Translations under genes and position numbers: made by a program
Notes under the pieces: model-generated
What the model was told of the DNA's origin: nothing
What the model saw: only the letters and a program-made list of their open reading frames with translations
The model's database searches: none
Part shown: piece after piece, positions 1-58,912 of the stretch
Numbering within the stretch: position 1 is the stretch's first letter
Layout: each line of letters begins with the position of its first letter
Assembly (NCBI GenBank): GCA_025453445.1
Contig: JALOQJ010000003.1
Location: forward strand, 23,369 to 87,368
DNA: 64,000 nucleotides
Direction: 5' to 3'
Source: Candidatus Omnitrophota bacterium
GTDB lineage: Bacteria > Omnitrophota > Gorgyraeia > Gygaellales > Profunditerraquicolaceae

Positions 1-1014
1 GTAATAGAAAATGATGGAAAAGATAGCTTTCAGCCTTCAGTTTTTAGCCGTCAGCAGGAAGAATTGGATAGATTAACGCCTGAGCAAATCCGCGCAATAG
101 TTTTTGAAGCAGGTATTGTCGGAATGGGGGGAGCTACTTTTCCAACGCATATAAAACTCAATTCTCCAAAACCAGTGGATACCTTAATCATTAATGGCGC
201 AGAATGCGAGCCGTATTTAACCGGTGATTCCCGGCTGATGATTGAGAAAACAGAAGAAATCATCAAGGGCATCGCTTTGCTTAAGCAATGCCTGGGTGTT
301 CAAAAAATATATATTGCTATTGAAGATAATAAACCGGAAGCAATTTCAGCTTTCAGCCTTCAGCCTTCAGCTTTCAGCTTTCAGCTAATAGTATTAAAAT
401 CAGCCTACCCGCAGGGCGGAGAAAAACAATTAATAAAAAATATTTTGGAGAAAGAAGTCCCTTCAGGCAAACTCCCTTTTGATATCGGCGTAGTAGTGCA
501 TAATGTGGCGACTGTTTATGCGGTTTATGAGGCAGTTTACAAAAATAAACCTCTTTATGAACGTGTGGTTACGGTAACCGGCAGTTGTTTAACTAATCCG
601 CAAAATCTTTTAGTGCGTTTAGGCACACCCATAAAAGAGTTGATTGATTTTTGCGGCCCACTTAAGGAAGAGCCGGCAAAGATTATCATCGGCGGGCCAA
701 TGATGGGCATTGCTCAATATACAGCTGATGTCCCAGTGATCAAATCTTCCGGAGGAGTTGTCCTCTTAAACAAAAAAGAGGCTAGGCAGCAGGAAGAAGA
801 ATCTTGTATTCGCTGCGGTGCTTGTGTCAGGGAATGCCCTGCAGGGCTTATGCCTTGCTTGATCAATCTGGCCTCGGAAAAAGAAATGTGGGATGAGGCG
901 AAGGCATATAAAGCTGCTGATTGTATTGAATGCGGTTTGTGCAATTATCTTTGTCCGGCAAAACGAAAATTAACTCAGTCTATTAAAAGGGCAAAGCTGG
1001 AGCTAAGCAGATGA
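1..1014 (+). CDS. rnfC: Rnf electron-transport complex subunit C (RnfC), 5'-truncated by window edge
   Basis: The reading frame is open from nt 1; the listed start at 64 is only an internal TTG. GIVGMGGATFPT motif and two 4Fe-4S ferredoxin motifs (CIRCGACVRECP, CIECGLCNYLCP). Followed by rnfG/D/E/A/B. Confidence 0.85.
   Translation, partial: VIENDGKDSFQPSVFSRQQEELDRLTPEQIRAIVFEAGIVGMGGATFPTHIKLNSPKPVDTLIINGAECEPYLTGDSRLMIEKTEEIIKGIALLKQCLGVQKIYIAIEDNKPEAISAFSLQPSAFSFQLIVLKSAYPQGGEKQLIKNILEKEVPSGKLPFDIGVVVHNVATVYAVYEAVYKNKPLYERVVTVTGSCLTNPQNLLVRLGTPIKELIDFCGPLKEEPAKIIIGGPMMGIAQYTADVPVIKSSGGVVLLNKKEARQQEEESCIRCGACVRECPAGLMPCLINLASEKEMWDEAKAYKAADCIECGLCNYLCPAKRKLTQSIKRAKLELSR
26..55. repeat. 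Degenerate heptamer (YTCAGCY-like) tandem array inside rnfC
   Basis: ctttcagc cttcagt ttttagc cgtcagc read in-frame as SFQPSVFSRQ. Confidence 0.4.
344..385. repeat. Tandem heptanucleotide array (T/C)TTCAGC x6, in-frame inside rnfC
   Basis: tttcagc tttcagc cttcagc cttcagc tttcagc tttcagc. Encodes SAFSLQPSAFSFQ within RnfC. Confidence 0.8.
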
Positions 1015-1092
1015 CCCATTCGACTCGCTTCGCTCGCTCAGGGTCATCCTGAGTGATAGATGCCGAGTAAGAAAGGCAGAAGTCGAAGGATG

Positions 1093-1605: not shown

Positions 1606-2536
1606 ATTGATTGTTAGCCCTGCTCCGCATCTCTATAAAGGCGAATCTGTCAGCAGGATTATGTGGATGGTTGTGGCCAGCTTAATCCCTGCGGGCGTGG
1701 CAGGTATTTTTATTTTCGGGCCCTCGGCACTCTCGGTAATTATCACAGCTGTTATTTCTGCTTTGGCAGCAGAATTAATTTTACAGGTTGCCACAAAAAG
1801 AAAAATTACTGTTTTTGATGGCAGCGCAGTTATCACTGGTTTGTTATTAGCATACAACCTTCCTGCGCATGTGCCGTTATGGCTGCCGGTGATCGGGTCT
1901 TTTTTCTCGATTGCTATCGGCAAGCAGGTATTTGGGGGGTTAGGGCAGAATATTTTTAATCCTGCTTTAGTCGGCAGGGTATTTTTAATGGCTTCTTGGC
2001 CTAAATATATGACGGTTTTCACTCAGCCTTTAAATTATGATGCTATTGCTCAGGCAACGCCGCTTGCCGCTTTAAAAGAAGGCAAGATAATCGAGCATAT
2101 AACTTATCTCGATTTATTTTTAGGCAAAAGAGGCGGTTGTATAGGAGAAGTTTGTATTTTAGCCTTACTTATCGGAGCGGGGTTCCTTTTAATCCGGGGA
2201 TATATTTCCTGGCAGATTCCTTTTACTTATATTATAACAACAGGCGTATTTACCTATATCTTTGCAGGCAAAGGCTTATTTGCCGGAGATTGGCTGTTTC
2301 ATATTTTATCCGGTGGTTTAATTTTGGGCGCATTTTTTATGGCTACTGATTATGTTACTTCGCCATTGACTACTAAAGGGCAGATTGTTTTTGGTATAGG
2401 CTGCGGGTTATTAACGGCGATTATCCGGCTTTGGGGCGGTTATCCTGAAGGCGTATCTTATGCGATTTTAATGATGAACGCTGCAACGCCAATTATCGAC
2501 AGATTTACGAAAAACAGGGTGTATGGGAGTAGATGA
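1598..2536 (+). CDS. rnfD: Rnf complex subunit D (NqrB/RnfD family)
   Basis: Polytopic membrane protein with FGGLGQNIFNPALVGRVFL and MATDYVTSP (FMN attachment) motifs. Confidence 0.85.
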   Translation: MNKLIVSPAPHLYKGESVSRIMWMVVASLIPAGVAGIFIFGPSALSVIITAVISALAAELILQVATKRKITVFDGSAVITGLLLAYNLPAHVPLWLPVIGSFFSIAIGKQVFGGLGQNIFNPALVGRVFLMASWPKYMTVFTQPLNYDAIAQATPLAALKEGKIIEHITYLDLFLGKRGGCIGEVCILALLIGAGFLLIRGYISWQIPFTYIITTGVFTYIFAGKGLFAGDWLFHILSGGLILGAFFMATDYVTSPLTTKGQIVFGIGCGLLTAIIRLWGGYPEGVSYAILMMNAATPIIDRFTKNRVYGSR

Positions 2537-14016: not shown

Positions 14017-16908
14017 ATGGGATATAAGATTGAAATTAAGGAAAGACCGGGAATTTTTGATGCTGTGGGTAATGGCGTCAAAAAAGACATCCTTGATTTG
14101 GGGATAAATTCCGTAGATCGGGTGCAGTTTATACAAATTTATCTGATTGAAGGCAATATTTCTCAGGATGAAGTAAAGAAAATCTGCGAAGATCTGTTGG
14201 TGGATAAAATCAGCCAGGATTATTCTATCAATAATTCTCAGCCTCCGGTAGCCCGCCGGAATGAATTTGTTGTAGAAGTTGCATATAATCCCGGAGTAAT
14301 GGATCCTGTGGAGTTGTCGGTATTAAAAGCAATTAAAGACTTGGGCATAGACGGCGCTGAGGGAGTAAAAACCGCAAAGAAATACCTGCTCAGGGGAAAA
14401 CTCTCTGCAATACAGCTAAAAACAATTTCTGAAAAACTGCTTTATAATAAATTAATCCAGCATATCGTCAGCTCTCAGCTTTCAGCTCTCAGCTTTCAGC
14501 CTGCCGGGTATAAATTTAATCTTATTACTGTTGATCTTTCAGGCGCTTCCGATAAAAAATTGGAAAAAATCAGCAAAGACGGTCAATTATTTTTGAATCT
14601 TAAAGAAATGCGCCAGATTAAAAATTATTTTAAGGGGTTAGACCGTAATCCCACTGATTGCGAATTAGAAACCTTGGCGCAGACTTGGTCTGAACATTGC
14701 GGGCACAAGACATTTAGAGGAAGAATAAAATATACTGAGCAAATTAAAGATTCAAAACCCAAAACAAAGTTAATAGATAATCTTTTAAAATCTACAATTG
14801 TTAAAGTTACAAAAGAATTGAAAAAGCCGTGGTGTGTTTCGGTATTCCATGATAATTCCGGAGTAATTAAGTTTGACGATAAATATAATGTCTGTTTTAA
14901 AGTAGAAACGCACAATCACCCATCGGCATTGGAGCCTTTTGGCGGAGCAAACACTGGTATCGGGGGCGTGATCCGTGATCCGTTAGGCACAGGTTTGGGC
15001 GCTAAGCCGATTTTAAATACTGATGTTTTCTGTTTTGCGCCGCCTGATTATCCGTTTGATAAATTGCCTCAGGGTACACTTCATCCTAAGAGGATTATGA
15101 AAGGCGTAGTTTCCGGAGTGCGTGATTATGGCAATAAGATGGGAATTCCTACGGTTAACGGTGCAGTATTATTCCATGAAAGATTTGTCGGCAATCCGCT
15201 TGTTTATTGCGGTACTGTGGGAATTATGCCTAAAGATAAGACTTTTAAAGAAACTAAAGTTGGGGATTTGATTGTAGTGGTAGGCGGCCGCACCGGCAGA
15301 GACGGAATTCACGGCGCAACTTTTTCATCCGGTGAACTGACGCATGAGTCGGAAACTATTTCATCCGGAGCAGTGCAAATCGGAAACCCGATCCAGGAAA
15401 AGAAAATGGTAGATACGATATTACAGGCACGCGACATGAATTTATATAACGCGATTACTGACTGCGGAGCAGGCGGCCTCTCTAGCGCAGTCGGAGAGAT
15501 GGGCGCTGAAATCGGGGCAAGAGTTGATTTAGATAAAGTGCCCTTAAAATATTCCGGGTTAACTTATGCGGAAATCTGGATTTCCGAGTCGCAGGAAAGA
15601 ATGGTTTTGGCAGTGCCTAAAACTAATATTGATCGATTGCTTGAGGTTTTTGCTGCGGAAAATGTTGAAGCTACGGTCATCGGAGAATTTAACCAGACAA
15701 AACGGCTCGAACTTTTTTATCAGGGTAATCTGGTTTGTGATTTAAAGATGAAGTTTCTCCACGACGGCCTGCCGCAGCTGGAAAAGAAAGCTGTATTTAT
15801 TCAGGAAAAACACAGAGAGCCGAAATTGCCTGAAACCCAAAACCTGACAAAAAATTTATCAGAGTTATTATCGCATTATGATATTTGTTCCAAGGAATGG
15901 GTGATCCGGCAGTATGATCACGAAGTGCAGGGTGGGTCAATTTTAAAACCTTTAATAGGTATTGTGAATGATGGGCCGTCTGATGCTGCAGTAGCACAGC
16001 CAGTATTAGGCTCAAAAAAAGGCCTGATTATTTCTAACGGGATAAATTTCCGTTTTGGTTTTATTGATCCTTACTGGATGGCGGCATCTTGTATTGATGA
16101 GGCCTTGCGCCAGATTATTTCTGTAGGAGGATCATTGAAAGAAGTGGCGATTCTGGATAATTTTTGCTGGGGTAATCCTGATAAGCCGGACAGGCTTGGT
16201 GGCCTGGTCAGGGCAGCAAACGGATGCTATGATATTGCTAAGGGTTTTGGCGTGCCGTTTATTTCCGGCAAGGACAGCCTTTATAACGAATACAGCGTAA
16301 ATAATAAATCTTTGCCCATACCCGGCACGCTTTTGATTTCTGCCATCGCTGTGATGGATGATATCGCGAAAACAATTTCTATGTATGCAAAAAAATCTGG
16401 TAATTTAATTTATGTAGTCGGCGATACATATGATGAATTAGGCGGTTCGCATTATTATGATACTTTGGGATTTTTAGGCAATAATTGCCCGCGTGTAAAT
16501 ACCAAAAAAGCAAAAGAGGTTTTTAATGCTTTGAGTGCAGCATCATCTGCGGGTTTAATTGAGGCAATGCATGATTGCTCAGAAGGCGGCATTGCTGTGG
16601 CAGCAGCAGAAATGGCTTTTAGCGGCGAGTTGGGAATGGAATTATTTTTATCGGAAGTGCCCTATAAAATGCAAAGCGTAAGGAATGATTCTATACTATT
16701 TTCTGAATCAAATTCCAGATTTATTGTTGAAGTAGAAAAGAAGAATCAGAAAGCCTTTGAGCAAGAATTGCAGGGAATATCTTTTGGCTTGATTGGCTGT
16801 TTATCAAAAGATAAAAATTTTAAGGTGCACAGTATAGAGGGGAAAATCTGTATTGAAGCAGGGATTAATCAATTAAAAGAAGCATGGCTTAAACCATTGA
16901 GGTGGTAG
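14017..16908 (+). CDS. purL: Phosphoribosylformylglycinamidine synthase, PurS-PurL fusion
   Basis: 963 aa. The N-terminal ~80 aa resemble PurS. PurL AIR-synthase-like domains (GIGGVIRDP, GGRTGRDGIHGATFSS). Contains an in-frame heptamer-repeat insertion. Confidence 0.85.
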   Translation: MGYKIEIKERPGIFDAVGNGVKKDILDLGINSVDRVQFIQIYLIEGNISQDEVKKICEDLLVDKISQDYSINNSQPPVARRNEFVVEVAYNPGVMDPVELSVLKAIKDLGIDGAEGVKTAKKYLLRGKLSAIQLKTISEKLLYNKLIQHIVSSQLSALSFQPAGYKFNLITVDLSGASDKKLEKISKDGQLFLNLKEMRQIKNYFKGLDRNPTDCELETLAQTWSEHCGHKTFRGRIKYTEQIKDSKPKTKLIDNLLKSTIVKVTKELKKPWCVSVFHDNSGVIKFDDKYNVCFKVETHNHPSALEPFGGANTGIGGVIRDPLGTGLGAKPILNTDVFCFAPPDYPFDKLPQGTLHPKRIMKGVVSGVRDYGNKMGIPTVNGAVLFHERFVGNPLVYCGTVGIMPKDKTFKETKVGDLIVVVGGRTGRDGIHGATFSSGELTHESETISSGAVQIGNPIQEKKMVDTILQARDMNLYNAITDCGAGGLSSAVGEMGAEIGARVDLDKVPLKYSGLTYAEIWISESQERMVLAVPKTNIDRLLEVFAAENVEATVIGEFNQTKRLELFYQGNLVCDLKMKFLHDGLPQLEKKAVFIQEKHREPKLPETQNLTKNLSELLSHYDICSKEWVIRQYDHEVQGGSILKPLIGIVNDGPSDAAVAQPVLGSKKGLIISNGINFRFGFIDPYWMAASCIDEALRQIISVGGSLKEVAILDNFCWGNPDKPDRLGGLVRAANGCYDIAKGFGVPFISGKDSLYNEYSVNNKSLPIPGTLLISAIAVMDDIAKTISMYAKKSGNLIYVVGDTYDELGGSHYYDTLGFLGNNCPRVNTKKAKEVFNALSAASSAGLIEAMHDCSEGGIAVAAAEMAFSGELGMELFLSEVPYKMQSVRNDSILFSESNSRFIVEVEKKNQKAFEQELQGISFGLIGCLSKDKNFKVHSIEGKICIEAGINQLKEAWLKPLRW
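14466..14500. repeat. Tandem heptamer array YTCAGCY x5 in-frame inside purL
   Basis: cgtcagc tctcagc tttcagc tctcagc tttcagc, encoding SSQLSALSFQP. Confidence 0.8.
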
Positions 16909-17579
16909 GTATGGGAAAAATTAAAAAAATCAGAAGAATTAAAGATGATTTTACCAAAGAAGATCCTTGGCGGGTTTTCAGGATTATGTCAGAATTTGTT
17001 GATGGTTTTGAAGTGCTTTCTAGGGTGGGAAAAGCAGTGTCTATGTTCGGCGGCAGCAGAATTTCTGCCGGCCATAAATATTACAAACTGGCTGAAGAAA
17101 CTGCCTATTTATTAGCAAAAGCAGGCTTTGCAGTAATTACAGGCTCTGGCCCGGGGATCATGGAGGCAGGTAATAAGGGTGCACAGCGCGCTAATGGGCT
17201 TTCTATAGGCCTAAATATTCAGATTCCCACTGAGCAAAAAGCGAATAAGTATGTGGGTACACTTCTGGATTTTCATTACTTTTTTGTGCGCAAAGTGATG
17301 TTTGTTAAATACGCCAAAGCATTTGTAATTATGCCCGGAGGCTATGGTACTTTGGATGAATTATTTGAATCATTGAATTTAATCCAGACTGAACGTATTG
17401 GAAAATTTCCGGTTATTCTGATGGGGAAAAAATACTGGAAAGGCATGCTTAATTGGCTAGGTGATACTGTATTGACAAACAAGACTATCTCAAAAGGTGA
17501 TTTGGATATATTTACCGTTACGGATGATCCGAAAGAAGTAGTCAGGTTAATTAAGAAATTTTATGAAAAGAAATCCTAA
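16902..17579 (+). CDS. LOG-family nucleotide 5'-monophosphate nucleosidase (TIGR00730-type Rossmann protein)
   Basis: PGGYGTLDELFE and GxGxxE motifs typical of LOG/YvdD. Overlaps the purL stop and purQ start. Confidence 0.75.
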   Translation: MVGMGKIKKIRRIKDDFTKEDPWRVFRIMSEFVDGFEVLSRVGKAVSMFGGSRISAGHKYYKLAEETAYLLAKAGFAVITGSGPGIMEAGNKGAQRANGLSIGLNIQIPTEQKANKYVGTLLDFHYFFVRKVMFVKYAKAFVIMPGGYGTLDELFESLNLIQTERIGKFPVILMGKKYWKGMLNWLGDTVLTNKTISKGDLDIFTVTDDPKEVVRLIKKFYEKKS

Positions 17580-18354
17580 GGTTTGTGTATTAAGGACAGC
17601 AGGGACTAACTGCGATAAAGAAACTGCATTTGCTTTTGTGCAAGCCGGCGCGGATGCAGAATTGGTGCATATCAATAAATTTATTCAGCGGGAAAGGAAT
17701 TTTTCCGATTATGAGATTCTTGCCATTCCGGGGGGGTTTAGTTATGGGGATGATGTGGCAGCGGGAAAAATTCTGGCCAATGAATTGCGCACTAAATTAA
17801 TAGATGATTTAAGGCAATTCATTCAGGACGGCAAGTTGATTATCGGGATTTGCAATGGCTTCCAGATTTTAGTTAAAAGCGGTTTACTGCCTGGCAATGA
17901 TATGTTCGAGCAGGAAGTGAGCCTGGTTATAAACGATTCGGGGAAATTTGAGGATCGTTGGGTGTATTTAAAAAGTAAAAAGTCGAAAGTAAACAGTCAA
18001 AAGTGTGTCTGGACGAAGCATTTGCCGGAGGTAATTTATCTGCCGGTGGCGCATGGAGAGGGAAAGTTTATTGTTCAGGATGAAACAATTTTAAAAAAAC
18101 TGAAAGACAACAACGAGGTTGTATTTCAGTATTGCGATGAAGCGGGAAAATTAGCAGGCTATCCGGATAATCCTAATGGTTCGCTGGAGAATATCGCCGG
18201 TATTACTGATCAAACCGGCAGGATTCTCGGGTTAATGCCGCATCCGGAGAGGCATATCAGTGTATTACAGCATCCGCGTTGGATGGGTAAAAAAGAAGGC
18301 GATGGCCTGAGAATTTTTAAAAACGGCGTAGATTATATCAGGAATCATTTTTAA
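17563..18354 (+). CDS. purQ: Phosphoribosylformylglycinamidine synthase glutaminase subunit
   Basis: Class I GATase with catalytic GICNGFQ Cys and MPHPER His. 263 aa. Confidence 0.85.
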   Translation: MKRNPKVCVLRTAGTNCDKETAFAFVQAGADAELVHINKFIQRERNFSDYEILAIPGGFSYGDDVAAGKILANELRTKLIDDLRQFIQDGKLIIGICNGFQILVKSGLLPGNDMFEQEVSLVINDSGKFEDRWVYLKSKKSKVNSQKCVWTKHLPEVIYLPVAHGEGKFIVQDETILKKLKDNNEVVFQYCDEAGKLAGYPDNPNGSLENIAGITDQTGRILGLMPHPERHISVLQHPRWMGKKEGDGLRIFKNGVDYIRNHF

Positions 18355-18363
18355 TATGTATTT

Positions 18364-18397
18364 GGTTGTAGCGGAGGTTTAAACCTCCGCTACAACC
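18364..18397. repeat. 34-bp perfect palindrome centred on GTTTAAAC
   Basis: GGTTGTAGCGGAGGTTTAAACCTCCGCTACAACC. A partial third arm (GCGGAGGTTAACC) supplies the purF-like RBS. A near-identical palindrome is at 39728. Confidence 0.7.
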
Positions 18398-18414
18398 ATG
18401 GCGGAGGTTAACCA

Positions 18415-33855: not shown

Positions 33856-34272
33856 ATGCAGAAATTTATTATTTTATTTTTTTTATTATTTAGACCGTTT
33901 GCTTTTGCAGAGGTTTCTTTGCAGGAGGTCTGTGTTAAAAATACCTGTTTGAAAGCAGAGATTGCTTCCTCTCTGGAGGAGCGCAGGTTGGGGTTAATGT
34001 TCAGGGAATCCTTACCTAAAGACAGGGGCATGCTTTTTATTCTTGATTTTAAGGAAAGTAGCAGCTTCTGGATGAAAAATATGCAGTTCCCTTTGGATAT
34101 TATCTGGATCGATAAAGATAAAGTAATCAGCGAAATTATGCAAAACGTCTTACCGTGCAGCAAGAGCTGCCCGGATCTTATTCCACAGCAACAAGCCAGT
34201 TTTGTTTTGGAAGTAAATGCAGGTTTTGTCCAAAAACACCGCATTAAAGCAGGCGACAAGGTAAGATTTTAG
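33856..34272 (+). CDS. DUF192 (COG1430) family secreted protein
   Basis: Signal peptide and MQFPLDIIWIDKD motif. Confidence 0.6.
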   Translation: MQKFIILFFLLFRPFAFAEVSLQEVCVKNTCLKAEIASSLEERRLGLMFRESLPKDRGMLFILDFKESSSFWMKNMQFPLDIIWIDKDKVISEIMQNVLPCSKSCPDLIPQQQASFVLEVNAGFVQKHRIKAGDKVRF

Positions 34273-36146
34273 CCGGTACGCAGCTGTTTTTCCGCATCAA
34301 CCACATCGCGGTTAATCACGCGGATAGTTTCTTTAATTCTTTCTTTTATTACGGCTGAGGTAGCGCCGGCGTCGTTTATTTCTTTTAAGATCTGGATGCT
34401 CATCCTAAAATACCTGACTACTTCGCCTTCGTCAGTATCGGTAAACTGCAATATCTTTTCAAAATTTGTCCCGCGCAGCCACGCTTCCATGCAATTGCTT
34501 AAGTGAAAATACGGCTGTTTACTAAAGGAATAAATGCGGTGTTTTCTTTCCCGTTCCCTGATCTGTAAATAAAATTCTTCGGCAAGGCTTTTAATTTTAC
34601 GGCCTGCCTTGGAGAGGCTGAGTAAGTGCTGATTTTTACGCGGCTCAAAGACCACCGAAGCAGTAAGAATCCCCAGCCCGAATTCATCCAGTTGTTCCAG
34701 TATGCCTGCTCCGAAAAGCTCTGAAAGGATTAACTCATATCCATAAACTGTTTTGGCGAATTTACCCTTTTGGGTAAGGGCGTTATTTTCAATATAGCCT
34801 AATTCTTTGAGCAGGTTTAATTTTGCCTCAATTGCCTGCAATGCCGCTTTTTGTTCATTTTTACGCGATTGGAAATAATGTAGAGAAAGTGGGTAGATTT
34901 TAAAAAGCCCCTCCTGATATTTTTCGTAAAGGTTCAATATTGTTGCATAAGAAGTGTTAAACTGGCTTTTTACCGGCTCCGCAGGGGAATAAATGATGCG
35001 TTTTACTTCTTGCGGGTCAATACGCCGGGGATTAATCCGGCAGTAAACAAAGCCTTCTTTATCAATGCCGCGCCTACCTGCACGGCCAGCCATCTGGTAA
35101 AAATCGCGCGTCTTTAAGTTCCGCACATAATGGCCGTAGAATTTTCTCAATTCATCAAAAATAACACTGCGGCTGGGCATATTGATGCCGAGGGCAAAGG
35201 TTTCAGTGGTAAAAATAACTTTCAGCAGCCGGCTGGTAAATAATCTTTCGATTACTTCTTTTAAAGTCGGCAGCATCCCGGCATGATGATAAGCAATGCC
35301 TTTTTGAACCAGTGGTAGCATTTCAGCGGCAGTGCGGTCGTCTTTCAGGTCAAAGCGCTGGCAGAGGTTGCTATATAGTTCACAGATCTGTATTTTTTCT
35401 TTTGAGCTGAGGAAATTATAATTAAATAATTCCTGCGCCAATTCTTCGGCTCGGCGCCTGCCAAAAACAAAATAAATACAAGGCAAGCCTTCTTCCTGCT
35501 GCAGGTAGCTGATCAGTGAGCTGATTCTGTTTACCCTGCTGTCTTTGCGGTGCCGTATACCGTTTAAATTATTCAGTATTTCATTTTGGTATTGATAAAA
35601 AAAATGCAAAGGTACCGGCCTTTTTTCCTCAAGTACGGTTTTTACCTGTTTCTTGTGGATTGATTCGATCCATTTGGCAATTTGCGCAATATTGGGGATA
35701 GTCGCTGAGAGCGCTAAAATATTCATATGGGCCGGTAAAAAAATCAGGGATTCTTCCCAGACTGTACCGCGCTCGGGATTATCAAGGTAATGCACCTCGT
35801 CAAAAATTACCCATTGATAGGGTTTTAGGCTTTGCGGTTCATCGAGGATTTTGTTACGGAAGATTTCCGTAGTCATGATTAATACCGGCGCCCCGGGGTT
35901 CAAGGAAACATCGCCGGTTAAGATGCCGATATTATCGCCGTATTGGCTTTGGAAATCGCGGAATTTCTGGTTGGAAAGGGCTTTAATCGGCGCGGTATAA
36001 ATGACTCCGGTTTTTTTCTCAATGCAGCTGGTAATAATATGTTCTGCAATTGCGGTTTTCCCTGCGCCTGTAGGCGCTGAGACGATTACCGAATGTCCCT
36101 GATTAATATAATCAATGGCTTCCTGCTGAAAACGATCGTAAAGCAT
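34269..36146 (-). CDS. DEAD/DEAH-box helicase, Ski2-like
   Basis: Walker A SAPTGAGKTAIAEH, DEVH box (FDEVHYL), helicase C-terminal region QMAGRAGRRG. 625 aa. Confidence 0.8.
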   Translation of the reverse strand: MLYDRFQQEAIDYINQGHSVIVSAPTGAGKTAIAEHIITSCIEKKTGVIYTAPIKALSNQKFRDFQSQYGDNIGILTGDVSLNPGAPVLIMTTEIFRNKILDEPQSLKPYQWVIFDEVHYLDNPERGTVWEESLIFLPAHMNILALSATIPNIAQIAKWIESIHKKQVKTVLEEKRPVPLHFFYQYQNEILNNLNGIRHRKDSRVNRISSLISYLQQEEGLPCIYFVFGRRRAEELAQELFNYNFLSSKEKIQICELYSNLCQRFDLKDDRTAAEMLPLVQKGIAYHHAGMLPTLKEVIERLFTSRLLKVIFTTETFALGINMPSRSVIFDELRKFYGHYVRNLKTRDFYQMAGRAGRRGIDKEGFVYCRINPRRIDPQEVKRIIYSPAEPVKSQFNTSYATILNLYEKYQEGLFKIYPLSLHYFQSRKNEQKAALQAIEAKLNLLKELGYIENNALTQKGKFAKTVYGYELILSELFGAGILEQLDEFGLGILTASVVFEPRKNQHLLSLSKAGRKIKSLAEEFYLQIRERERKHRIYSFSKQPYFHLSNCMEAWLRGTNFEKILQFTDTDEGEVVRYFRMSIQILKEINDAGATSAVIKERIKETIRVINRDVVDAEKQLRTG

Positions 36147-36228
36147 AGATTATATTATAATCTAAAATATTGATTTATCCAATAAAAAAGGGTAGAATAA
36201 CAATGAATGATAGATAATATTTGTTTGC

Positions 36229-36298
36229 TATCAGTCATCAGCTTTCAGCTATCAGCTTAAAGCTGAAGGCTGACAGTTAAAGGCTGACAGCTGAAAAT
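36229..36298. repeat. Intergenic heptamer array (NNTCAGC-like units) arranged as direct units followed by inverted units
   Basis: tatcagt catcagc tttcagc tatcagc ttaaagc | tgaaggc tgacagt taaaggc tgacagc tgaaaat. Confidence 0.55.
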
Positions 36299-39684: not shown

Positions 39685-39727
39685 GGTTGTGAGGATGCAA
39701 CAAAATCGTTAACAGTAGTTAGGAGCT

Positions 39728-39759
39728 GCCGTAGCGGAGGTTTAAACCTCCGCTACGGC
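39728..39759. repeat. 32-bp perfect palindrome centred on GTTTAAAC (same family as 18364)
   Basis: GCCGTAGCGGAGGTTTAAACCTCCGCTACGGC, 8 nt upstream of aroK. Confidence 0.7.
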
Positions 39760-39767
39760 ATTAGGTT

Positions 39768-41285: not shown

Positions 41286-41317
41286 GAGAGTAGGTGACGT
41301 TTAAACGTCACCTACTC
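41286..41317. repeat. 32-bp perfect palindrome centred on GTTTAAAC (third family member)
   Basis: AGAGTAGGTGACGTTTAAACGTCACCTACTCT. Confidence 0.6.
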
Positions 41318-41432
41318 TTACCCTATGGATAATTCGGGGTTTTTAAAGTCGCGCCCCCTGTCTGATAGTAGGTGGAGAATCGCGTTTTGCCAACTGTCCA
41401 GAGAGGACAACGTAACAAAGTAAAGGTTGATA

Positions 41433-54000: not shown

Positions 54001-55098
54001 ATGAATATTTTATTATTAAGCAATCACCTTAATGTCGGCGGGATTTCCAGCTATATTCTGACCTTAGCAAAAGGCCTGCAGAACAAGGGCCATAAAGTTT
54101 ATGTTGCTTCTGGTGCAGGTGAATTACTGGTGCGTTTAAAAGATGAAGGCATAATTCATATCCCCGTACCATTAAAGACTAAGGCAGAGATAAGCCCGAA
54201 TGTTTTAATCAGTTTTTTCAAATTATTGCCTGAGATGAAGAAAAAAAATATTGATATTATCCATGCCAATACACGGGTAACTCAGGTATTAAGCTGTTTC
54301 TTGAGCCGGTATTCAGGTGCGCCGTTTATTTCTACCTGCCACGGATTTTTTAAAAAAAGGTTGTTCCGGAAGATCTTATCCTGCTGGGGAGAGAGGGTAA
54401 TTGCTATCAGTGAACAGGTAAAAGAGCATTTGGTAAATGATTTTGGAGTTCAGAAAAATAGAATCAGGCTCGTTCATAATGGTATAGATTTAACTAAATT
54501 CAGCCCTCAGCTTTCAGCCTTCAGCTTTCAGCAAAAGAAAGATTTTGCTTTAAGCGACGGCCCGGTTATCGGGATTGTTGCCAGGCTCTCCGATGTTAAA
54601 GGGCATATTTACCTGATTCAGGCAATGAAAATGGTCTTAGAAAAAATTCCTTCAGCGCAACTGGTTATTGTCGGCGAGGGTAAGATTAAAGATAGCCTGG
54701 TCAAATTAAGCCGGGAACTTTGCATTGAGAAAAGCATGAAATTTATTCCCAATGTAATGGATACAAGGGGTATTTTATCGGTTATTGATTTATTTGTCCT
54801 GCCTTCTTTAAAAGAAGGGCTGGGCCTGAGCCTGATGGAGGCAATGAGCATGGGCAAAGCAGTGGTTGGCTCGAATATCGGCGGAATAAAAAGCCTGATT
54901 CAGCACAGGGTAAACGGGCTCTTGGTTGAACCTGCTAATCCTGAACAGTTAGCTTTAGCAATAATTGAGCTTCTGCAGGATGCAGCAAAAAGAGAATTAT
55001 TCGGCCAAAGGGCATTGGAATTTATCGCCGGAAATTTTTCTCAAAGTGACATGATTTCTAAGACGGAAGAGGTTTATCAGGAATGCGTAAAGCGCTGA
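54001..55098 (+). CDS. GT4-family glycosyltransferase
   Basis: EGLGLSLMEAMSMGKAVVGSNIGG. Contains an in-frame heptamer-repeat insertion. Confidence 0.8.
   Translation: MNILLLSNHLNVGGISSYILTLAKGLQNKGHKVYVASGAGELLVRLKDEGIIHIPVPLKTKAEISPNVLISFFKLLPEMKKKNIDIIHANTRVTQVLSCFLSRYSGAPFISTCHGFFKKRLFRKILSCWGERVIAISEQVKEHLVNDFGVQKNRIRLVHNGIDLTKFSPQLSAFSFQQKKDFALSDGPVIGIVARLSDVKGHIYLIQAMKMVLEKIPSAQLVIVGEGKIKDSLVKLSRELCIEKSMKFIPNVMDTRGILSVIDLFVLPSLKEGLGLSLMEAMSMGKAVVGSNIGGIKSLIQHRVNGLLVEPANPEQLALAIIELLQDAAKRELFGQRALEFIAGNFSQSDMISKTEEVYQECVKR
54498..54532. repeat. Tandem heptamer array YTCAGCY x5 in-frame inside the GT4 gene
   Basis: attcagc cctcagc tttcagc cttcagc tttcagc, encoding SPQLSAFSFQQ. Confidence 0.8.
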
Positions 55099-55877: not shown

Positions 55878-56892
55878 ACGTATCCTGATTTTTAATGTAA
55901 ACTGGATTGGCGATGTATTGTTTTCTACGGCGGTGTTAAGGAATATCCGGCGCAATTATCCCGGCAGCTTTATTGCCTGTATTATCCCGGGGCGCTGTTA
56001 CCCGGTACTTAAGGGTAACCCGCATCTGGATGAAGTAATTATTTTTGACGAGCACGACCGGCATAAGAATGTTTTTTCGAAGTTTTCTTTTGTCCAGCTT
56101 CTGAAACGTAAACGTTTTGATACGGCAATCCTCTTGCATGGCTCGCTGACCCGCGCGCTGATTTGTAAACTGGCGGATATTCCGGAGATTATCGGATACA
56201 ATACCAAGAAGCGGGGATGGCTCTTAAGCAAAAAAATCCCGTTGCCGGCTAAAGATGCGCTGCACCGCATAGATTTTTACTTAAATATCATTGAAAAGGC
56301 GGGCTTAAGAGTAGAAGACAGGTATCTTGAGTTTTTTATTTCCGAAGATGATGAGAAATTTACTATAGAATTTCTGGATAAGCAGGGGATAGCCAGAAAC
56401 GAAACCATTATCGGCATTAACACCGGAGGTAACTGGCTGCCGAAACGCTGGCCGAAAGAATACTGGATGAAACTCATCCAGTTGATTCAGAATGAGCTTG
56501 GATTAAAAGTAGTCATCAGTGGAGGGCATCAGGATCTGACTTTGGCAAGGAAAATCAGCGAGCAATTACAAGACAAGCCGTTGATTACCTGCGGCTTGCT
56601 GAATTTAAAGCAGTCGGCCGCGCTTTTAAAAAGGCTGGACTTATTTATTTCCGGAGATAGCGGCCCTTTGCATATTGCTAATACTGTGGGGACAAAAAAA
56701 ATTATTGCTCTCTTTGGCCCGACACATTCTTCTATCACTGGACCGTTTCCCGCGAAAAATGTGACTATACTACAGAAAGATGTGGGTTGCAAGGTTCCTT
56801 GCTATGAGGTGAATTGCGAAGATAACCGCTGTATGAAGGCAATTACGCCGGAAGAAGTTTTGGGCCAAATAAAAATGTCATTGAATGAATAA
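55864..56892 (+). CDS. GT9 glycosyltransferase (heptosyltransferase WaaC/WaaF-like)
   Basis: RILIFNVNWIGDVLFSTAVLRNI N-terminal motif. 342 aa. Confidence 0.8.
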   Translation: MEKNKRILIFNVNWIGDVLFSTAVLRNIRRNYPGSFIACIIPGRCYPVLKGNPHLDEVIIFDEHDRHKNVFSKFSFVQLLKRKRFDTAILLHGSLTRALICKLADIPEIIGYNTKKRGWLLSKKIPLPAKDALHRIDFYLNIIEKAGLRVEDRYLEFFISEDDEKFTIEFLDKQGIARNETIIGINTGGNWLPKRWPKEYWMKLIQLIQNELGLKVVISGGHQDLTLARKISEQLQDKPLITCGLLNLKQSAALLKRLDLFISGDSGPLHIANTVGTKKIIALFGPTHSSITGPFPAKNVTILQKDVGCKVPCYEVNCEDNRCMKAITPEEVLGQIKMSLNE

Positions 56893-58912
56893 AACCAATA
56901 AGATCCTTTTTATTACTTTAAGCAATATCGGGGATGCAATCCTTACCCTGCCGGCGCTGGATGCCTTGATTGCGAATTTTCCTAAAGGAAAAATTACAGT
57001 GGTTTGCGGCCCACGGCCGAAAGAATTATTCATGCATAATCCGTATGTCAGTAAGTTGATTATTTTTGATAAACATTCCCGGATGCGCGAAAAAATTAGA
57101 TTGTTCCGGCAGTTAAAAAAAGAAAAATTCGATTTAGTTATAGACCTGCGCAATAGTTTATTCGGAGTAATGTTGGCCCCCTTATCTAGAATTCAGCCGC
57201 GCCTTGTGCTGTTGCAGAACAAAAAACATATGCAGGATAGCCACTTGTGTAAAACACAGGTAAAAGCTGGTTTAAAATCACCAAAGATATCTTTTTGTAT
57301 TAATGAGCAGGATAAGGCATATGCAAGAAGGATGCTTTCGGAAAGCGGAATTGCTGAGCATGACAAGTTGATTGTAATTGCCGCAGGCGCAAGAAGCCAT
57401 ATTAAGAGGTGGCCGCAGCATAAGTTTGTTGAATTGATTCCTTCTTTAATAGAGGAATTCAGAGCAAAAGTAGTTTTAGCCGGGGATAAAGATGATTCTG
57501 CGGTAAACAAATACATTGCTTCGCAACTTAAGCAACCGGTTTTGGATTTAAGCGGTAAGACTACACTTTCCCAGATGGCGGCTTTGTTAAGTGTAGCAGA
57601 TTTGCTTATTACTAATGACAGCGCTACTATGCATCTGGCAAGCTATCTTAATTTGCCGGTTGTGGCAATTTTCGGGCCGACTAATGAATTAAAATACGGG
57701 CCATGGTCCGAGAATAGCGCTGTTGTAAAAAAGGATATTCATTGCCGTCCCTGCGAAAAAGCCCAGTGTAGATTCGGCACTCTCAGATGTATGGAAGTCA
57801 TTCAGCCGGAAGATGTTTTGAATCAGGTAAGAAAAATATTAGACCAAAGACCAAAGACCGCAGACCAAAGACCAAAAGAAGAATTTAAGCGAATATTAGT
57901 TGTTAGGACGGACAGAATTGGCGATGTGGTGCTTTCAACCCCGGTAATTAAGGCTTTAAGGGTTAGTTATCCACAGGCATTTATCGCAATGATGGTTTCT
58001 CCATACGCCAAAGATATCTTAGACGGCAATCCTTATTTGGACGAGGTAATTACTTTTGATAAAGATAGGAAAGAAAAAAGTTGGTGGGGTTGTTTTAAAT
58101 TCAGCCACTTTTTAAAAAAGAAAAAATTTGATTTGGCGATTGTGCTGCATCCCACGCAGCGCGTGCATTTAGTTATCTTCCATTCCGGTATTCCCAAAAG
58201 AGTAGGCTACAACAATAAATATGGTTTTCTCCTGACGGATAAATTTGAACACACCAAGCAACGTGGAGAAAAGCATGAATTAGAATATAATCTTGATTTG
58301 ATTGAGCGCCTCGGCATTGAGCCAAAAGATAAATTGCCCTTTGTGGCGATAAAGCCGGAATCCGAGCAATGGGTGGAGGAACTTTTTGAAAAAGAAACAA
58401 TCCGTAAGGCAGACAAATTACTGGCAATTAACCCGGGCGCAAGCTGCCCGTCAAAAATCTGGCCGGCTGAGAGGTTTGCTGAAGCTGCGGATAAATTAGT
58501 TGCTAAATTCGGATTTAAAGTATTGGTTGTTTCCGGGTCACGCGAAACAGCCTTAGCAGAAAATGTTATCCGGTATATGCATAATAAACCGGTTAATCTT
58601 GCCGGCCGGACATCAGTAAGCCAGTTGGCAAGTATTTTAAAAAGATGCAGGCTTTTTATCTCTAATGATTCCGGGCCGGTGCATATTGCCACTGCTGTGG
58701 GTGTGCCGGTGATTTCTATTTTTGGCAGGGCGCAGGCAGGCCTAGGGCCGAAACGTTGGGGGCCTGTAGGAGAAAAGGGCCGCATTTTACATAAAACTGT
58801 CGGTTGCGTAGAATGCCTTGCCCATAACTGCACCAAAGGTTTTCTTTGCCTGAAGGCAATTACCGTTGATGATGTGTTGAGTTTGGCTACTTCCATAATG
58901 GAAGAAGCCTGA
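56885..58912 (+). CDS. Tandem double GT9 heptosyltransferase-like protein
   Basis: Two complete GT9 modules (KILFITLSNIGDAILTLPALDAL and RILVVRTDRIGDVVLSTPVIKAL) joined by a repeat-encoded linker DQRPKTADQRPKEE. Confidence 0.7.
   Translation: MNKTNKILFITLSNIGDAILTLPALDALIANFPKGKITVVCGPRPKELFMHNPYVSKLIIFDKHSRMREKIRLFRQLKKEKFDLVIDLRNSLFGVMLAPLSRIQPRLVLLQNKKHMQDSHLCKTQVKAGLKSPKISFCINEQDKAYARRMLSESGIAEHDKLIVIAAGARSHIKRWPQHKFVELIPSLIEEFRAKVVLAGDKDDSAVNKYIASQLKQPVLDLSGKTTLSQMAALLSVADLLITNDSATMHLASYLNLPVVAIFGPTNELKYGPWSENSAVVKKDIHCRPCEKAQCRFGTLRCMEVIQPEDVLNQVRKILDQRPKTADQRPKEEFKRILVVRTDRIGDVVLSTPVIKALRVSYPQAFIAMMVSPYAKDILDGNPYLDEVITFDKDRKEKSWWGCFKFSHFLKKKKFDLAIVLHPTQRVHLVIFHSGIPKRVGYNNKYGFLLTDKFEHTKQRGEKHELEYNLDLIERLGIEPKDKLPFVAIKPESEQWVEELFEKETIRKADKLLAINPGASCPSKIWPAERFAEAADKLVAKFGFKVLVVSGSRETALAENVIRYMHNKPVNLAGRTSVSQLASILKRCRLFISNDSGPVHIATAVGVPVISIFGRAQAGLGPKRWGPVGEKGRILHKTVGCVECLAHNCTKGFLCLKAITVDDVLSLATSIMEEA
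57841..57875. repeat. Tandem heptamer array AGACCAA x5 (one unit AGACCGC) encoding an inter-domain linker
   Basis: agaccaa agaccaa agaccgc agaccaa agaccaa. Confidence 0.75.

What the first reader, a model, noticed from the sequence alone, without database searches (positions are those of the whole stretch)
344..385. Tandem heptanucleotide (YTCAGCY) arrays inserted in-frame into core enzymes (rnfC here; also purL and a GT4 gene)
Six units of (T/C)TTCAGC sit inside RnfC, adding SAFSLQPSAFSFQ between conserved regions. A second degenerate array is at 26-55. The same heptamer family recurs in-frame in purL (14466-14500, SSQLSALSFQP), in a GT4 glycosyltransferase (54498-54532, SPQLSAFSFQQ), and intergenically at 36229-36298. 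A 7-nt unit means single-unit slippage would frameshift these genes; only 3-unit changes are frame-neutral. The pattern resembles the heptameric STRR repeats of cyanobacteria. I am not aware of it being described in this kind of organism or inside essential genes. It may represent a genome-wide selfish short-repeat invader tolerated in surface loops.
Basis: seen in the sequence. Interest (0 to 1): 0.65.

Follow-up and report, generated by a model that had tools for sequence, protein, structure and literature searches.

The report
In-frame heptamer repeats in Omnitrophota enzymes
Tandem 7-base repeats really do lie in frame inside RnfC, PurL and sugar-transferase genes of this Omnitrophota bacterium, but they fill short loop or linker "slots" of nearly fixed length that other 7-base repeats fill in over a hundred relatives, which extends the known, unexplained heptamer-repeat phenomenon into essential genes.

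Summary
(TTTCAGC)x6 lies at 344-386. The same family lies at 26-55, 14466-14501, 54498-54533 and 36229-36298: 13 three-unit hits against 0.01 expected. In the window only lag 7 gives periodic segments (6, against 0 for lags 5, 6 and 8-11).

The "insertion" reading is only partly right. Solved RnfC structures and Pfam profiles align across the arrays with gaps of 1-2 residues. The arrays therefore replace a native helix-loop-strand or linker segment.

In about 100-120 Omnitrophota homologues each of RnfC (two sites), PurL and GT4, the same slot is hypervariable. Its length is nearly fixed and it shows a lag-7 amino-acid repeat. In the nine relatives whose DNA was read, it is a different heptamer array, several of them perfect.

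Period 7/14 arrays dominate the repeat spectrum of Omnitrophota loci, at about 10 per 100 kb against 1.4 in other phyla.

Best explanation: these are coding heptanucleotide microsatellites, kept homogeneous by out-of-register copying. Selection on frame, stop codons and slot length filters the outcomes.

How one unit family reaches several loci is unexplained. There are no shared flanks and the window holds no mobility genes.

This is a new variant of a known kind (STRR-like repeats). I found no description of it for this phylum.

The parts
1..1014 (+). rnfC (3' 337 codons; the gene runs off the left edge of the window). It hosts two arrays.
   Evidence: Pfam Complex1_51K, SLBB and Fer4. It is 100% identical to P0001, a 426-aa RnfC of an Omnitrophica MAG.
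26..55 (+). RnfC site 1: a degenerate TTCAGCY array coding SFQPSVFSRQ. It lies in the linker between RnfC_N and the FMN-binding domain.
   Evidence: TRF finds 28-54 and the pattern search hits 29-49. The AF2 model shows coil at residues 93-107. Homologues show a lag-7 repeat of 0.153 in this slot.
344..386 (+). RnfC site 2: (TTTCAGC)x6.1 coding SAFSLQPSAFSFQ. It replaces the end of a helix, the loop and the start of a beta strand in the Rossmann-like domain.
   Evidence: TRF gives 94% matches. The alignment to 9eri_C has a 1-residue gap. The AF2 model has helix 201-208, coil, then strand 217-221 at pLDDT 80-86. Homologues show a lag-7 repeat of 0.253 in this slot.
14017..16908 (+). purS-purL fusion gene (963 aa). 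It hosts one array.
   Evidence: Pfam PurS, FGAR-AT_linker, AIRS and AIRS_C. It is identical to P0121 from an NCBI Omnitrophica MAG contig of 102,907 bp.
14466..14501 (+). PurL array of 5 units (TCAGCTC/TCAGCTT) coding SSQLSALSFQP. It lies between the PurS part and the FGAR-AT linker domain.
   Evidence: TRF. The slot is hypervariable in 119 homologues, with a lag-7 repeat of 0.111. The same family is seen in P0131, P0126, P0130 and P0132.
17969..18004 (+). Decayed heptamer array (TAAAAAG-like, 75% matches) in purQ (17563-18354).
   Evidence: TRF and the lag scan. In genome GCA_964555545.1 the same purQ position carries a perfect (AACGACC)x4.3 array.
36229..36298 (.). Intergenic array of forward TCAGCT-type units followed by reverse-complement units. 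It forms a hairpin in the 5' leader of the DUF3786 gene (ATG at 36297).
   Evidence: The RNA fold is -32.4 kcal/mol, z = -4.46. The DNA fold is -16 kcal/mol, z = -4.44. A promoter-like site lies at 36170-36198. There is no Rfam match.
54001..55098 (+). GT4 glycosyltransferase gene in an LPS-core cluster. It hosts one array.
   Evidence: Pfam Glyco_transf_4 at residues 12-165 and Glycos_transf_1 at 180-338.
54498..54533 (+). GT4 array of 5 units coding SPQLSAFSFQQ. It lies in the connection between the two Rossmann domains.
   Evidence: TRF. Homologues show a lag-7 repeat of 0.169 and the segment is 37 aa in 91 of 107. The orthologous array in L356 has the same length (TCAGCTG/TCAACTG).
57841..57876 (+). 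(AGACCAA)x5.1 coding DQRPKTADQRPK, in the linker that joins the two GT9 modules of the 675-aa heptosyltransferase (56885-58912).
   Evidence: TRF. Single-module GT9 proteins match query residues 2-320 or 331-672. L356 has (GAATTCA)x4.4 at the same linker.

Best explanation
These are coding heptanucleotide microsatellites, STRR-like simple sequence repeats. Each one fills a short, structurally tolerant "slot" of constrained length in an otherwise conserved protein. The slot is an inter-domain linker or a helix-loop-strand connection.

**Steps that are shown**
1. The repeat is a DNA-level feature. One 7-nt unit is read in all three frames, and some arrays are 100% perfect, so selection on the protein cannot have created it.
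2. The slot pre-exists in non-repetitive form in other phyla, and its length is conserved.
3. In over 100 relatives the same slot carries other heptamers. When arrays are compared in register, all their units differ together, which is concerted evolution.
4. Only stop-free orientations are coding. The reverse complement of TTCAGCY contains TGA, and because the three frames rotate through an array of 3 or more units, that TGA is bound to fall in frame.
5. Length variants come in steps of 7 aa (21 nt).

**Steps that are inferred**
- Homogeneity is maintained by out-of-register copying: replication slippage, or misaligned sister or ectopic recombination.
- Loops of 7 nt are poorly recognised by MutS-type mismatch repair (established for E. 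coli; cited from my own knowledge).
- Purifying selection removes slips of 1 or 2 units (frameshifts), stop-creating variants and most length changes. The array therefore turns over in sequence but not in size.
- The encoded peptide is a tolerated by-product, shaped only by local needs such as a hydrophobic-x-hydrophobic pattern for the beta strand at RnfC site 2.
- The same family at five loci here reflects an old dispersed family, kept similar or spread by template switching or gene conversion between arrays. This last step is the weakest.
For: **The arrays are real and specifically heptameric:**

**They replace sequence rather than add it**
- HMMER alignment to solved RnfC (9eri_C, 7zc6_C) has gaps of 1-2 residues at both sites.
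- The Pfam profile is covered completely.
- Outgroup RnfC has a non-repetitive segment of 21 aa, the same length as here.
- AF2 predicts the canonical helix-loop-strand over the array at pLDDT 80-86.

**The slot is shared by relatives**
- Lag-7 identity is 0.253, 0.153, 0.111 and 0.169 for RnfC site 2, RnfC site 1, PurL and GT4. Other lags give 0.03-0.08.
- DNA of relatives shows (TAAATTC)x6.6, (AAATCCC)x4.6, (AAGAGCT)x4, (CAGGGTA)x4.4, and perfect (CAGGGTT)x4.4 and (TTCAGCG)x4.3 at the same RnfC sites.

**Evolution is concerted**
- The window and its nearest relative L082 (85% RnfC identity) both carry six units in register. They share only the TTC core, and the other four positions differ in all units.
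- In the L356 GT4 array, variants are shared by neighbouring units.

**Steps of 7 aa:** KAFNYELRI against KAFNYELRITNYELRI. The length classes are 9/16/23 and 14/21.

**Stop constraint:** the antisense reading is closed in all 87 TTCAGCY arrays from metagenomes.

**It is a lineage property:** 29 arrays of period 7 or 14 in 286 kb of Omnitrophota loci (shuffles give 1.0). Other phyla have 17 in 1,218 kb (shuffles give 6.4), and there periods 12, 15 and 18 dominate.

**No mobility signature:** no shared flanks, and housekeeping gene content throughout.

**The genic arrays are essentially unstructured as single strands**.
Against: - Local slippage alone does not explain why five loci in 64 kb share one unit family. 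It also does not explain why L356, a genome with 66% GT4 identity, carries the family at a locus (lptC) that has no array here.
- Homologue pairs that share a family at a site are barely more related than other pairs: backbone identity 0.781 against 0.769, 0.789 against 0.773, and 0.802 against 0.760. Strictly vertical inheritance with fast turnover does not predict this.
- Most +7-aa variants at RnfC site 2 and GT4 come from a nested 21-nt GC-rich palindrome rather than from three extra units.
- No unit-number polymorphism was seen. Two assemblies of the same sample were compared and their arrays are identical.
- The preference for 7 over 5, 8 or 10 nt is unexplained.
- The status of mismatch repair in this organism was not examined.
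Confidence: 0.6

Rival explanations
1. Selfish dispersed element. In this view the TTCAGCY array is a tiny mobile or templated repeat that a dedicated enzyme copies to new loci. The enzyme might be a transposase-like, nickase-like or reverse-transcriptase-like activity. The copies survive only where the protein tolerates them.
For: - One family occupies five loci in 64 kb, plus further loci in L356, including one that is empty here.
- TTCAGCY x4 occurs in at least 120 metagenome stretches of GC 0.34-0.68. These include in-frame copies in RibD, HemA, a Mur ligase, TruB, shikimate dehydrogenase and GT9. It also occurs in 56 viral-contig stretches.
- Some contigs carry several copies: L126 has 4 in 5.7 kb.
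- A different nested mini-element does exist in these slots, a 21-nt GC-rich palindrome.
Against: - The copies share no flank, terminal repeat or target duplication.
- No candidate enzyme gene lies in the window or its about 16 kb of extensions.
- In relatives the same slots hold dozens of unrelated heptamers: 70 clear units fall into 43 clusters, most of them site-specific.
- Family sharing within a protein is rare, 3 of 96.
- The arrays replace sequence rather than add it.
Confidence: 0.15
2. Functional cis-element. In this view the heptamer arrays are binding sites, or structural signals in DNA or mRNA, for a factor that reads a 7-nt period. Uses might include nucleoid organisation, control of RNA stability or translation pausing at domain boundaries. 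Each genome would then keep a small vocabulary of units.
For: - The same family occurs in genes and in a 5' leader, where it forms a strong hairpin directly before the start codon.
- The arrays lie at domain boundaries.
- Copy number is narrow, about 4.3-5.3.
- Periodicity persists at the same sites across a large clade.
Against: - The units at one site differ freely between relatives, and between sites within one genome.
- Many arrays are decayed, such as RnfC site 1 and purQ.
- The genic arrays have no predicted structure.
- Only one strand is possible in genes, because of stop codons.
- No Rfam family matches.
Confidence: 0.1
3. Contingency loci. In this view slippage by one unit switches the genes off and on (phase variation), as with the heptanucleotide repeat of neuO.
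For: - The unit length is not divisible by 3 and the arrays lie inside coding sequence.
- Two of the hosts, GT4 and GT9, are LPS-core genes, a classical target of phase variation.
- NeuO provides a precedent (PMC13001214).
Against: - RnfC, PurL and PurQ are central-metabolism genes, and their arrays lie mid-gene.
- The arrays are short: 5-6 units, against 3-53 in neuO.
- No out-of-frame allele was found. The truncated homologues P0072 and P0023 proved to be an adapter-contaminated contig end and a short gene call.
- The arrays are identical in two assemblies.
Confidence: 0.07
4. Protein-level repeat or artefact. In this view either the 7-aa peptide repeat is what selection maintains, for example as two similar strands of a hairpin, or the arrays are assembly errors.
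For: - RnfC site 2 favours a hydrophobic-x-hydrophobic pattern (FxV or YxL) before the conserved LKSxYP.
Against: - A 21-nt period made of three identical heptamers read in three different frames has no rationale at the protein level.
- Perfect arrays exist.
- The same unit occurs intergenically.
- The arrays recur in NCBI, JGI, ENA and Logan assemblies and in a single-cell genome.
Confidence: 0.03

Closest known systems
STRR (short tandemly repeated repetitive) heptamers of heterocystous cyanobacteria. The basic description (Mazel et al. 1990) is cited from memory. Their presence inside the RNase P RNA gene is taken from the title of Vioque 1997, as listed in the references of PMC4748335.
   Same: - Tandem 7-nt units.
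- A few unit families dispersed over many loci of one genome.
- No associated mobility gene.
- Can sit inside an essential structured gene, at a tolerant place.
- Function and mechanism are unknown.
   Different: - The host is Omnitrophota (PVC group), not cyanobacteria.
- Most copies here are inside protein-coding genes and in frame.
- The unit sequences are unrelated.
- The orthologous-slot behaviour across a clade has not, to my knowledge, been described for STRR.
GGGNATC-type heptameric repeats of Xanthomonas and Nostoc, and the general excess of heptanucleotide SSRs in prokaryotes (Rehm et al. 2015, PMC4692102; that paper cites Mrazek et al. 2007 for the general excess).
   Same: - Heptamer SSRs spread over the genome.
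- Variable unit number.
- Over-represented relative to other unit lengths.
   Different: - Those repeats are G-rich and form quadruplexes.
- They prefer four units.
[quoted passage not shown]
- Here the units are not G-rich, the genic copies have no predicted structure, and 6 of the 7 arrays in the window are coding.
The neuO heptanucleotide coding repeat (AAGACTC)n of E. coli K1 (PMC13001214).
   Same: - A 7-nt unit inside a coding sequence.
- Full-length translation only when the unit number is a multiple of three.
- Three units encode a 7-aa peptide repeat.
   Different: - neuO is a single phage-borne accessory gene.
- Its array has 3-53 units at the 5' end and is often out of frame, giving true phase variation.
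- Here the arrays are 5-6 units long, lie in the middle of housekeeping genes, are always in frame and are fixed in length.
Rickettsia palindromic elements (RPE) inserted in frame into metabolic genes (review PMC10969869).
   Same: - Repetitive DNA tolerated inside conserved enzyme genes, at positions compatible with the fold.
- Many unrelated host genes.
   Different: - RPEs are defined palindromic elements of about 150 bp that add length.
- Here the arrays are about 35-43 nt of tandem heptamers with no defined ends, and they replace native sequence.
- The 21-nt GC-rich palindrome nested in some relatives' arrays is the closer analogue of an RPE or MITE.
Borg tandem repeats that create amino-acid repeats (PMC9879509).
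   Same: - Nucleotide-perfect, fast-evolving tandem repeats inside ORFs.
- A lineage-specific excess.
- They generate new linker-like or disordered peptide.
   Different: - All genic Borg units are divisible by three.
- They are virtually unique within each genome and they add length.
- Here the unit is 7 nt, read in all three frames, families recur across loci, and length is conserved.

Membership tests
Heptanucleotide SSR / STRR-like dispersed repeats | Head-to-tail tandem copies of a 7-nt unit, beyond chance | tested here: met
   - TRF finds 6.1 copies at 94% matches.
- There are 13 hits against 0.01 expected.
- Only lag 7 is enriched.
Heptanucleotide SSR / STRR-like dispersed repeats | The same unit family at several unlinked loci of one genome | tested here: met
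   - Five loci within 64 kb carry the family.
- A second genome, L356, carries it at 2-3 loci.
- The whole-genome copy number is not known.
Heptanucleotide SSR / STRR-like dispersed repeats | Predominantly intergenic location (as described for Nostoc and Xanthomonas, PMC4692102) | tested here: not met
   - Four of the five TTCAGCY copies are coding.
- Six of the seven heptamer arrays in the window are coding.
Heptanucleotide SSR / STRR-like dispersed repeats | Hundreds of copies of a few families per genome | not testable with these tools
   Only about 80 kb of this genome could be read (the window plus L206 and L207).
Phase-variable contingency locus (neuO type) | Unit length not divisible by 3, inside the coding sequence | tested here: met
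Phase-variable contingency locus (neuO type) | Unit-number polymorphism that includes out-of-frame (OFF) alleles | tested here: not met
   - The arrays are identical in two assemblies.
- About 100-120 homologues of each protein are all in frame.
- The candidate truncated alleles turned out to be artefacts.
- Read-level data were not available.
Phase-variable contingency locus (neuO type) | The host gene is dispensable or surface-related, with the repeat near the 5' end | tested here: not met
   - RnfC, PurL and PurQ are core metabolic genes and their arrays lie mid-gene.
- Only GT4 and GT9 are LPS genes.
MITE / RPE-type element inserted in frame | A defined element with conserved ends or terminal inverted repeats, and a target-site duplication | tested here: not met
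   The flanks of the five copies share nothing beyond the heptamers.
MITE / RPE-type element inserted in frame | Adds length to the host protein compared with orthologues that lack it | tested here: not met
   - Gaps against solved RnfC are 1-2 residues.
- The GT4 segment is 37 aa in 91 of 107 homologues.
Borg-type amino-acid tandem repeats | The genic unit length is divisible by three | tested here: not met
   The unit is 7 nt. The Borg rule is stated in PMC9879509.

The most novel reading that the evidence does not exclude
The slots are maintained by an active process that depends on unit length rather than unit sequence and that is specific to this lineage. One form would be a templated or enzyme-driven activity that writes or re-homogenises about 30-43 nt of heptamer repeat at defined positions, and that can seed the same unit at new loci. 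Another form would be a factor that reads 7-nt periodic DNA or RNA at domain boundaries. Either would be a new kind of genome-editing or recognition system. It could also explain cyanobacterial STRRs and the general prokaryotic excess of heptamer SSRs.
Probability: 0.1. Interest if true: 0.9.

Novelty: new variant of a known kind. Interest (0 to 1): 0.6.

Why it matters
Heptanucleotide repeats are known to be over-represented in prokaryotes and have been known in cyanobacteria since 1990, but they have no accepted mechanism or function. They are usually treated as intergenic.

Here they occupy homologous coding slots in essential enzymes across a large, uncultured clade. This has three consequences.

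1. It gives a natural experiment with hundreds of replicates. The same slot has a known structural context and carries different units, so one can measure turnover, concerted evolution, strand and stop-codon constraints, and spread between loci.
2. It shows a route by which DNA-level repeat dynamics, rather than selection on the peptide, write linker sequences of conserved proteins.
3. It warns annotators and structure predictors that lineage-specific "insert" peptides in Omnitrophota proteins, and contig breaks near them, can be products of microsatellites.

If the spread of a unit family between loci proves to be enzyme-driven, that would be a new class of mobile or templated DNA.

Tried and rejected
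1. **Genome-contig scan with the RnfC alignment.** Only about 7 Omnitrophota loci came back. The other loci served as an outgroup.
2. **Frameshifted alleles at the arrays.** The short homologues P0072 and P0023 looked like genes split at site 1. L358 starts with Illumina adapter sequence. In L359 the reading frame continues upstream of the called start. This gives no evidence of OFF alleles.
3. **Unit-number variation between assemblies of the same sample.** None was found. The only structural difference is a MITE-like insertion of about 100 nt elsewhere.
4. **One dominant family per genome.** Rejected as a rule. L084, L209/L211 and L006 each carry several families, and site 1 shares a family with site 2 in only 3 of 96 proteins.
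5. **A small clade-wide vocabulary of units.** Support is weak: 70 clear units fall into 43 clusters, mostly site-specific. Apparent recurrences at RnfC site 2 fit a peptide constraint instead.
6. **Hairpin or slipped-structure propensity of the genic arrays, and a palindromic tetranucleotide core as a common feature.** The DNA folds are -2 to -4 kcal/mol and not distinctive. Inspection of the unit sequences shows that many units have no palindromic core.
7. **The period-14 "dimer" structure as evidence for block transfer.** This is not robust with only five units.
8. **The viral-contig control heptamer TCTGACY (82 stretches).** It turned out to be a natural family itself. TCGATCY gave 4 stretches. 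The abundance of TTCAGCY is therefore not special, and heptamer families differ widely in abundance.
9. **Literature.** Mrazek 2007, Elhai 2008 and Vioque 1997 are not held in the library. What I say about them rests on citations in other papers or on memory. Four full-text searches returned no paper on such repeats in Omnitrophota.
Full report

Yes. Tandem Repeats Finder reports these arrays:
- (TTTCAGC)x6.1 at 344-386, 94% matches.
- A degenerate array at 28-54.
- (TCAGCTC/TCAGCTT) at 14468-14500.
- (TTCAGCC/CTCAGCT) at 54499-54532.
- Arrays at 36237-36296.

Three units of YTCAGCY with up to 2 mismatches occur 13 times, against 0.01 in dinucleotide-preserving shuffles. A lag scan (at least 21 of 28 matches) finds six segments at lag 7. 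It finds none at lags 5, 6 or 8-11, and none in shuffles.

The quoted peptides and host genes are right. The hosts are RnfC, a PurS-PurL fusion and a GT4 glycosyltransferase.

Two further heptamer arrays of other families are coding:
- AGACCAA x5.1 at 57841-57876, in a double GT9 heptosyltransferase.
- A decayed TAAAAAG-like array at 17969-18004, in purQ.

**2. Where are we?**

The proteins are identical to those of an uncultured Omnitrophica/Omnitrophota MAG, on an NCBI contig of 102,907 bp and on JGI sample 3300037461.

The window is ordinary chromosome. It holds the rnf operon, purine biosynthesis, SHMT, NrdR, GreA, shikimate-pathway genes, DprA, TopA, a XerC/D-type recombinase and an LPS-core cluster. 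There is no transposase, reverse transcriptase or similar gene. Rfam finds only a tRNA.

**3. Replacement, not insertion.**

- The Pfam Complex1_51K profile (150 positions) is matched end to end by 144 residues that include the array.
- The solved RnfC chains 9eri_C and 7zc6_C align across site 2 with a one-residue gap, and across site 1 with two to four residues.
- Outgroup RnfC proteins have a non-repetitive segment such as IEVMRKACAGSSIEVVPLKTK. It is 21 aa, the same length as ISAFSLQPSAFSFQLIVLKSA here.
- An AlphaFold model puts site 1 in the coil between RnfC_N and the FMN-binding domain. Site 2 covers the end of helix 201-208, a loop and the start of strand 217-221, at pLDDT 80-86.
- The PurL array lies between the PurS part and the FGAR-AT linker domain.
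- The GT4 array lies between the two Rossmann halves.
- The GT9 array lies exactly where two heptosyltransferase modules are fused.

**4. The same slots in relatives.**

This is the main new result. I examined about 100-120 Omnitrophota homologues each of RnfC, PurL and GT4, at roughly 56-85% identity to the window's proteins.
- The flanks are nearly invariant, but the slot is hypervariable.
- Slot length is constrained. RnfC site 2 is mostly 14 or 16 aa. The GT4 segment is 37 aa in 91 of 107 homologues.
- The slot is internally repeated with a 7-residue period. Identity at lag 7 is 0.253 (RnfC site 2), 0.153 (RnfC site 1), 0.111 (PurL) and 0.169 (GT4). All other lags give 0.03-0.08.

A 7-nt array read in frame cycles through all three frames. 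It therefore yields one cyclic 7-aa peptide, which is exactly this signature.

The DNA of relatives confirms it at the RnfC sites:
- (TAAATTC)x6.6 in L082.
- (AAATCCC)x4.6 and (AAGAGCT)x4 in L084.
- (CAGGGTA)x4.4 in a single-cell genome, L006.
- Perfect (CAGGGTT)x4.4 and (TTCAGCG)x4.3 in L209.

Other observations from relatives:
- L211 has a perfect (AACGACC)x4.3 at the very purQ position where the window has its decayed array. It also has arrays in two other variable PurL linkers that are not repetitive here.
- L356 is a second Omnitrophota genome from the same sample. It has an array of equal length in the GT4 slot (TCAGCTG/TCAACTG) and (GAATTCA)x4.4 in the GT9 linker.
- The window and its nearest relative (85% RnfC identity) both have six units in register at RnfC site 2. 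They share only the TTC core, and the other four positions differ in every unit. This is concerted evolution.
- P0010 and P0004 differ by exactly TNYELRI, which is three units.

**5. A lineage property.**

- In 286 kb of non-redundant Omnitrophota loci there are 14 arrays of period 7 and 15 of period 14 (score at least 40). Shuffles give 0 and 1.0. No other period gives more than 3.
- In 1,218 kb around rnfC in other phyla there are 7 and 10 (shuffles give 0.4 and 6.0). There, periods 12, 15 and 18 dominate.

**6. Dispersal of the TTCAGCY family.**

- The five copies share no flanking sequence.
- The family looks old. TTCAGCY-like peptides occupy the PurL slot in P0131, P0126, P0130 and P0132, the GT4 slot in P0245/L356, and RnfC site 1 in about ten relatives.
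- L356 also has (TTTCAGC)x5.3 in the signal-anchor region of lptC, where this genome has no array. It has inverted AGCTAAA/TTTTAGC arrays in a spacer that is only 10 nt long here.
- Sharing of a family between sites within one genome is nevertheless unusual, seen in 3 of 96 RnfC proteins. Most unit clusters are site-specific.
- Homologue pairs that share a family are barely closer relatives than other pairs. This fits convergence under site-specific peptide constraints, such as FxV or YxL before LKSxYP, or ancient polymorphism.
- Outside the clade, TTCAGCY x4 occurs in at least 120 metagenome stretches of GC 0.34-0.68. These include in-frame copies in RibD, HemA, a Mur ligase, TruB, shikimate dehydrogenase, a methyltransferase, a Tricorn protease and GT9. 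It also occurs in 56 viral-contig stretches.
- Other heptamers gave 82 and 4 stretches. Heptamer arrays are therefore widespread and TTCAGCY is not unique.

**7. Strand constraint.**

The reverse complement (AGCTGAA or GGCTGAA) contains TGA. Across three or more units it must fall in frame. In all 87 metagenome arrays the antisense reading is closed. This alone explains why every genic copy has TTCAGCY on the sense strand.

**8. The intergenic copy.**

- Forward units are followed by reverse-complement units. Together they fold into a hairpin of -32.4 kcal/mol as RNA, z = -4.5.
- The hairpin lies downstream of a promoter-like site and ends a few bases before the ATG of a DUF3786 gene.
- Similar forward-plus-inverted pairs occur in L006, in L356 and in several metagenome loci.
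- The genic arrays are essentially unstructured as single strands.

**9. Most likely mechanism.**

Shown:
- The repeat originates at DNA level.
- The slots pre-exist and are conserved in length.
- Units turn over in concert.
- Frame, stop codons and length act as filters.

Inferred:
- Homogenisation comes from replication slippage or misaligned recombination.
- It is helped by the poor recognition of 7-nt loops by MutS-type repair (established for E. coli; my own knowledge).
- The family reaches other loci, or stays similar between them, through template switching or gene conversion.

I put 0.6 on this account. The rivals are a dedicated mobile or templated system (0.15), a functional 7-nt periodic cis-signal (0.1), phase variation (0.07), and protein-level selection or artefact (0.03).

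**10. Comparison with what is known.**

| Known system | What it shares | How it differs |
|---|---|---|
| Cyanobacterial STRRs; heptamer SSR excess (PMC4692102) | 7-nt tandem units dispersed over the genome | Those are described as mainly intergenic |
| neuO repeat (PMC13001214) | Coding arithmetic: 7-nt unit, in frame only at multiples of three | Biology: a phase-variable accessory gene |
| Rickettsia palindromic elements (PMC10969869) | Tolerance of repeats inside enzyme genes | Defined elements that add length |
| Borg repeats (PMC9879509) | Perfect, fast-evolving repeats inside ORFs | Genic units are divisible by three |

Four full-text searches returned no paper on these repeats in Omnitrophota. 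I rate the finding a new variant of a known kind.

**11. Limits.**

- Only about 80 kb of this genome could be read.
- No read-level data were available.
- The homologue sets form a star-like radiation, so vertical and convergent sharing of families cannot be separated.
- Several key older papers were not available to read.

Noticed in passing
L360:10640-10700 (RnfC site 2 of a relative). At peptide level it is also seen in P0008, P0020, P0022, P0042, P0049, P0111 and P0118 (RnfC), in P0205, P0211, P0217 and P0230 (PurL), and in P0355 and P0357 (GT4).: A 21-nt GC-rich palindrome (CCTGCCTTGCCGGCAGGCAGG, read as LPCRQAG or CLPAGRQ) is nested in frame inside the heptamer array. It adds exactly 7 aa. 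It looks like a separate palindromic mini-element that targets the same slots. From memory, this recalls the small dispersed repeats of Nostoc described by Elhai 2008.
   Followed up: partly
window 2526-2533, compared with L206:12794-12898: The JGI assembly of the same sample has a palindromic MITE-like element of about 100 nt (GTTGTCATTGCGAGC...GCTCCCTCGCAATGAC) between rnfD and rnfE. The window lacks it. Clustered SNPs lie on both sides. This is a strain-level presence/absence polymorphism.
   Followed up: partly
window 1014-1080: The spacer between rnfC and rnfG holds an imperfect palindrome, CGCTCGCTCAGGGTCATCCTGAG. It looks like a fragment of another MITE-type repeat. It occurs only once in the window.
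   Followed up: partly
window 18363-18398 and 39727-39760; also 41287-41318: Two perfect palindromes of 34-36 nt share the core GTAGCGGAGGTTT|AAACCTCCGCTAC. They lie 17 nt upstream of the purF start and 8 nt upstream of the shikimate kinase start. Each contains GGAGG on both strands. A third perfect palindrome has a different sequence. They may be operators or structures that occlude the ribosome-binding site.
   Followed up: no
window 56885-58912 and 51901-53991: The LPS-core cluster encodes fused glycosyltransferases: GT9-GT9 (675 aa) and GT4-GT9 (696 aa). The GT9-GT9 fusion linker is one of the heptamer slots.
   Followed up: partly
L206:7756-7991 (about 2.3-2.5 kb upstream of the window's left edge): A hypothetical 280-aa protein with no Pfam match contains coding repeats of 21 nt (7 aa) of the EDVRDRR type. 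They are not built from heptamers.
   Followed up: no
window 34269-36146 (- strand): A Ski2/Mtr4-like helicase with DEAD, Helicase_C and DSHCT domains is transcribed divergently from the DUF3786 gene whose leader carries the heptamer hairpin.
   Followed up: no
L358:1-60: This public ENA metagenome contig begins with Illumina adapter sequence (…GTGACTGGAGTTCAGACGTGTGCTCTTCCGATCT). The adapter was translated into the N-terminus of the called RnfC protein, P0072.
   Followed up: yes
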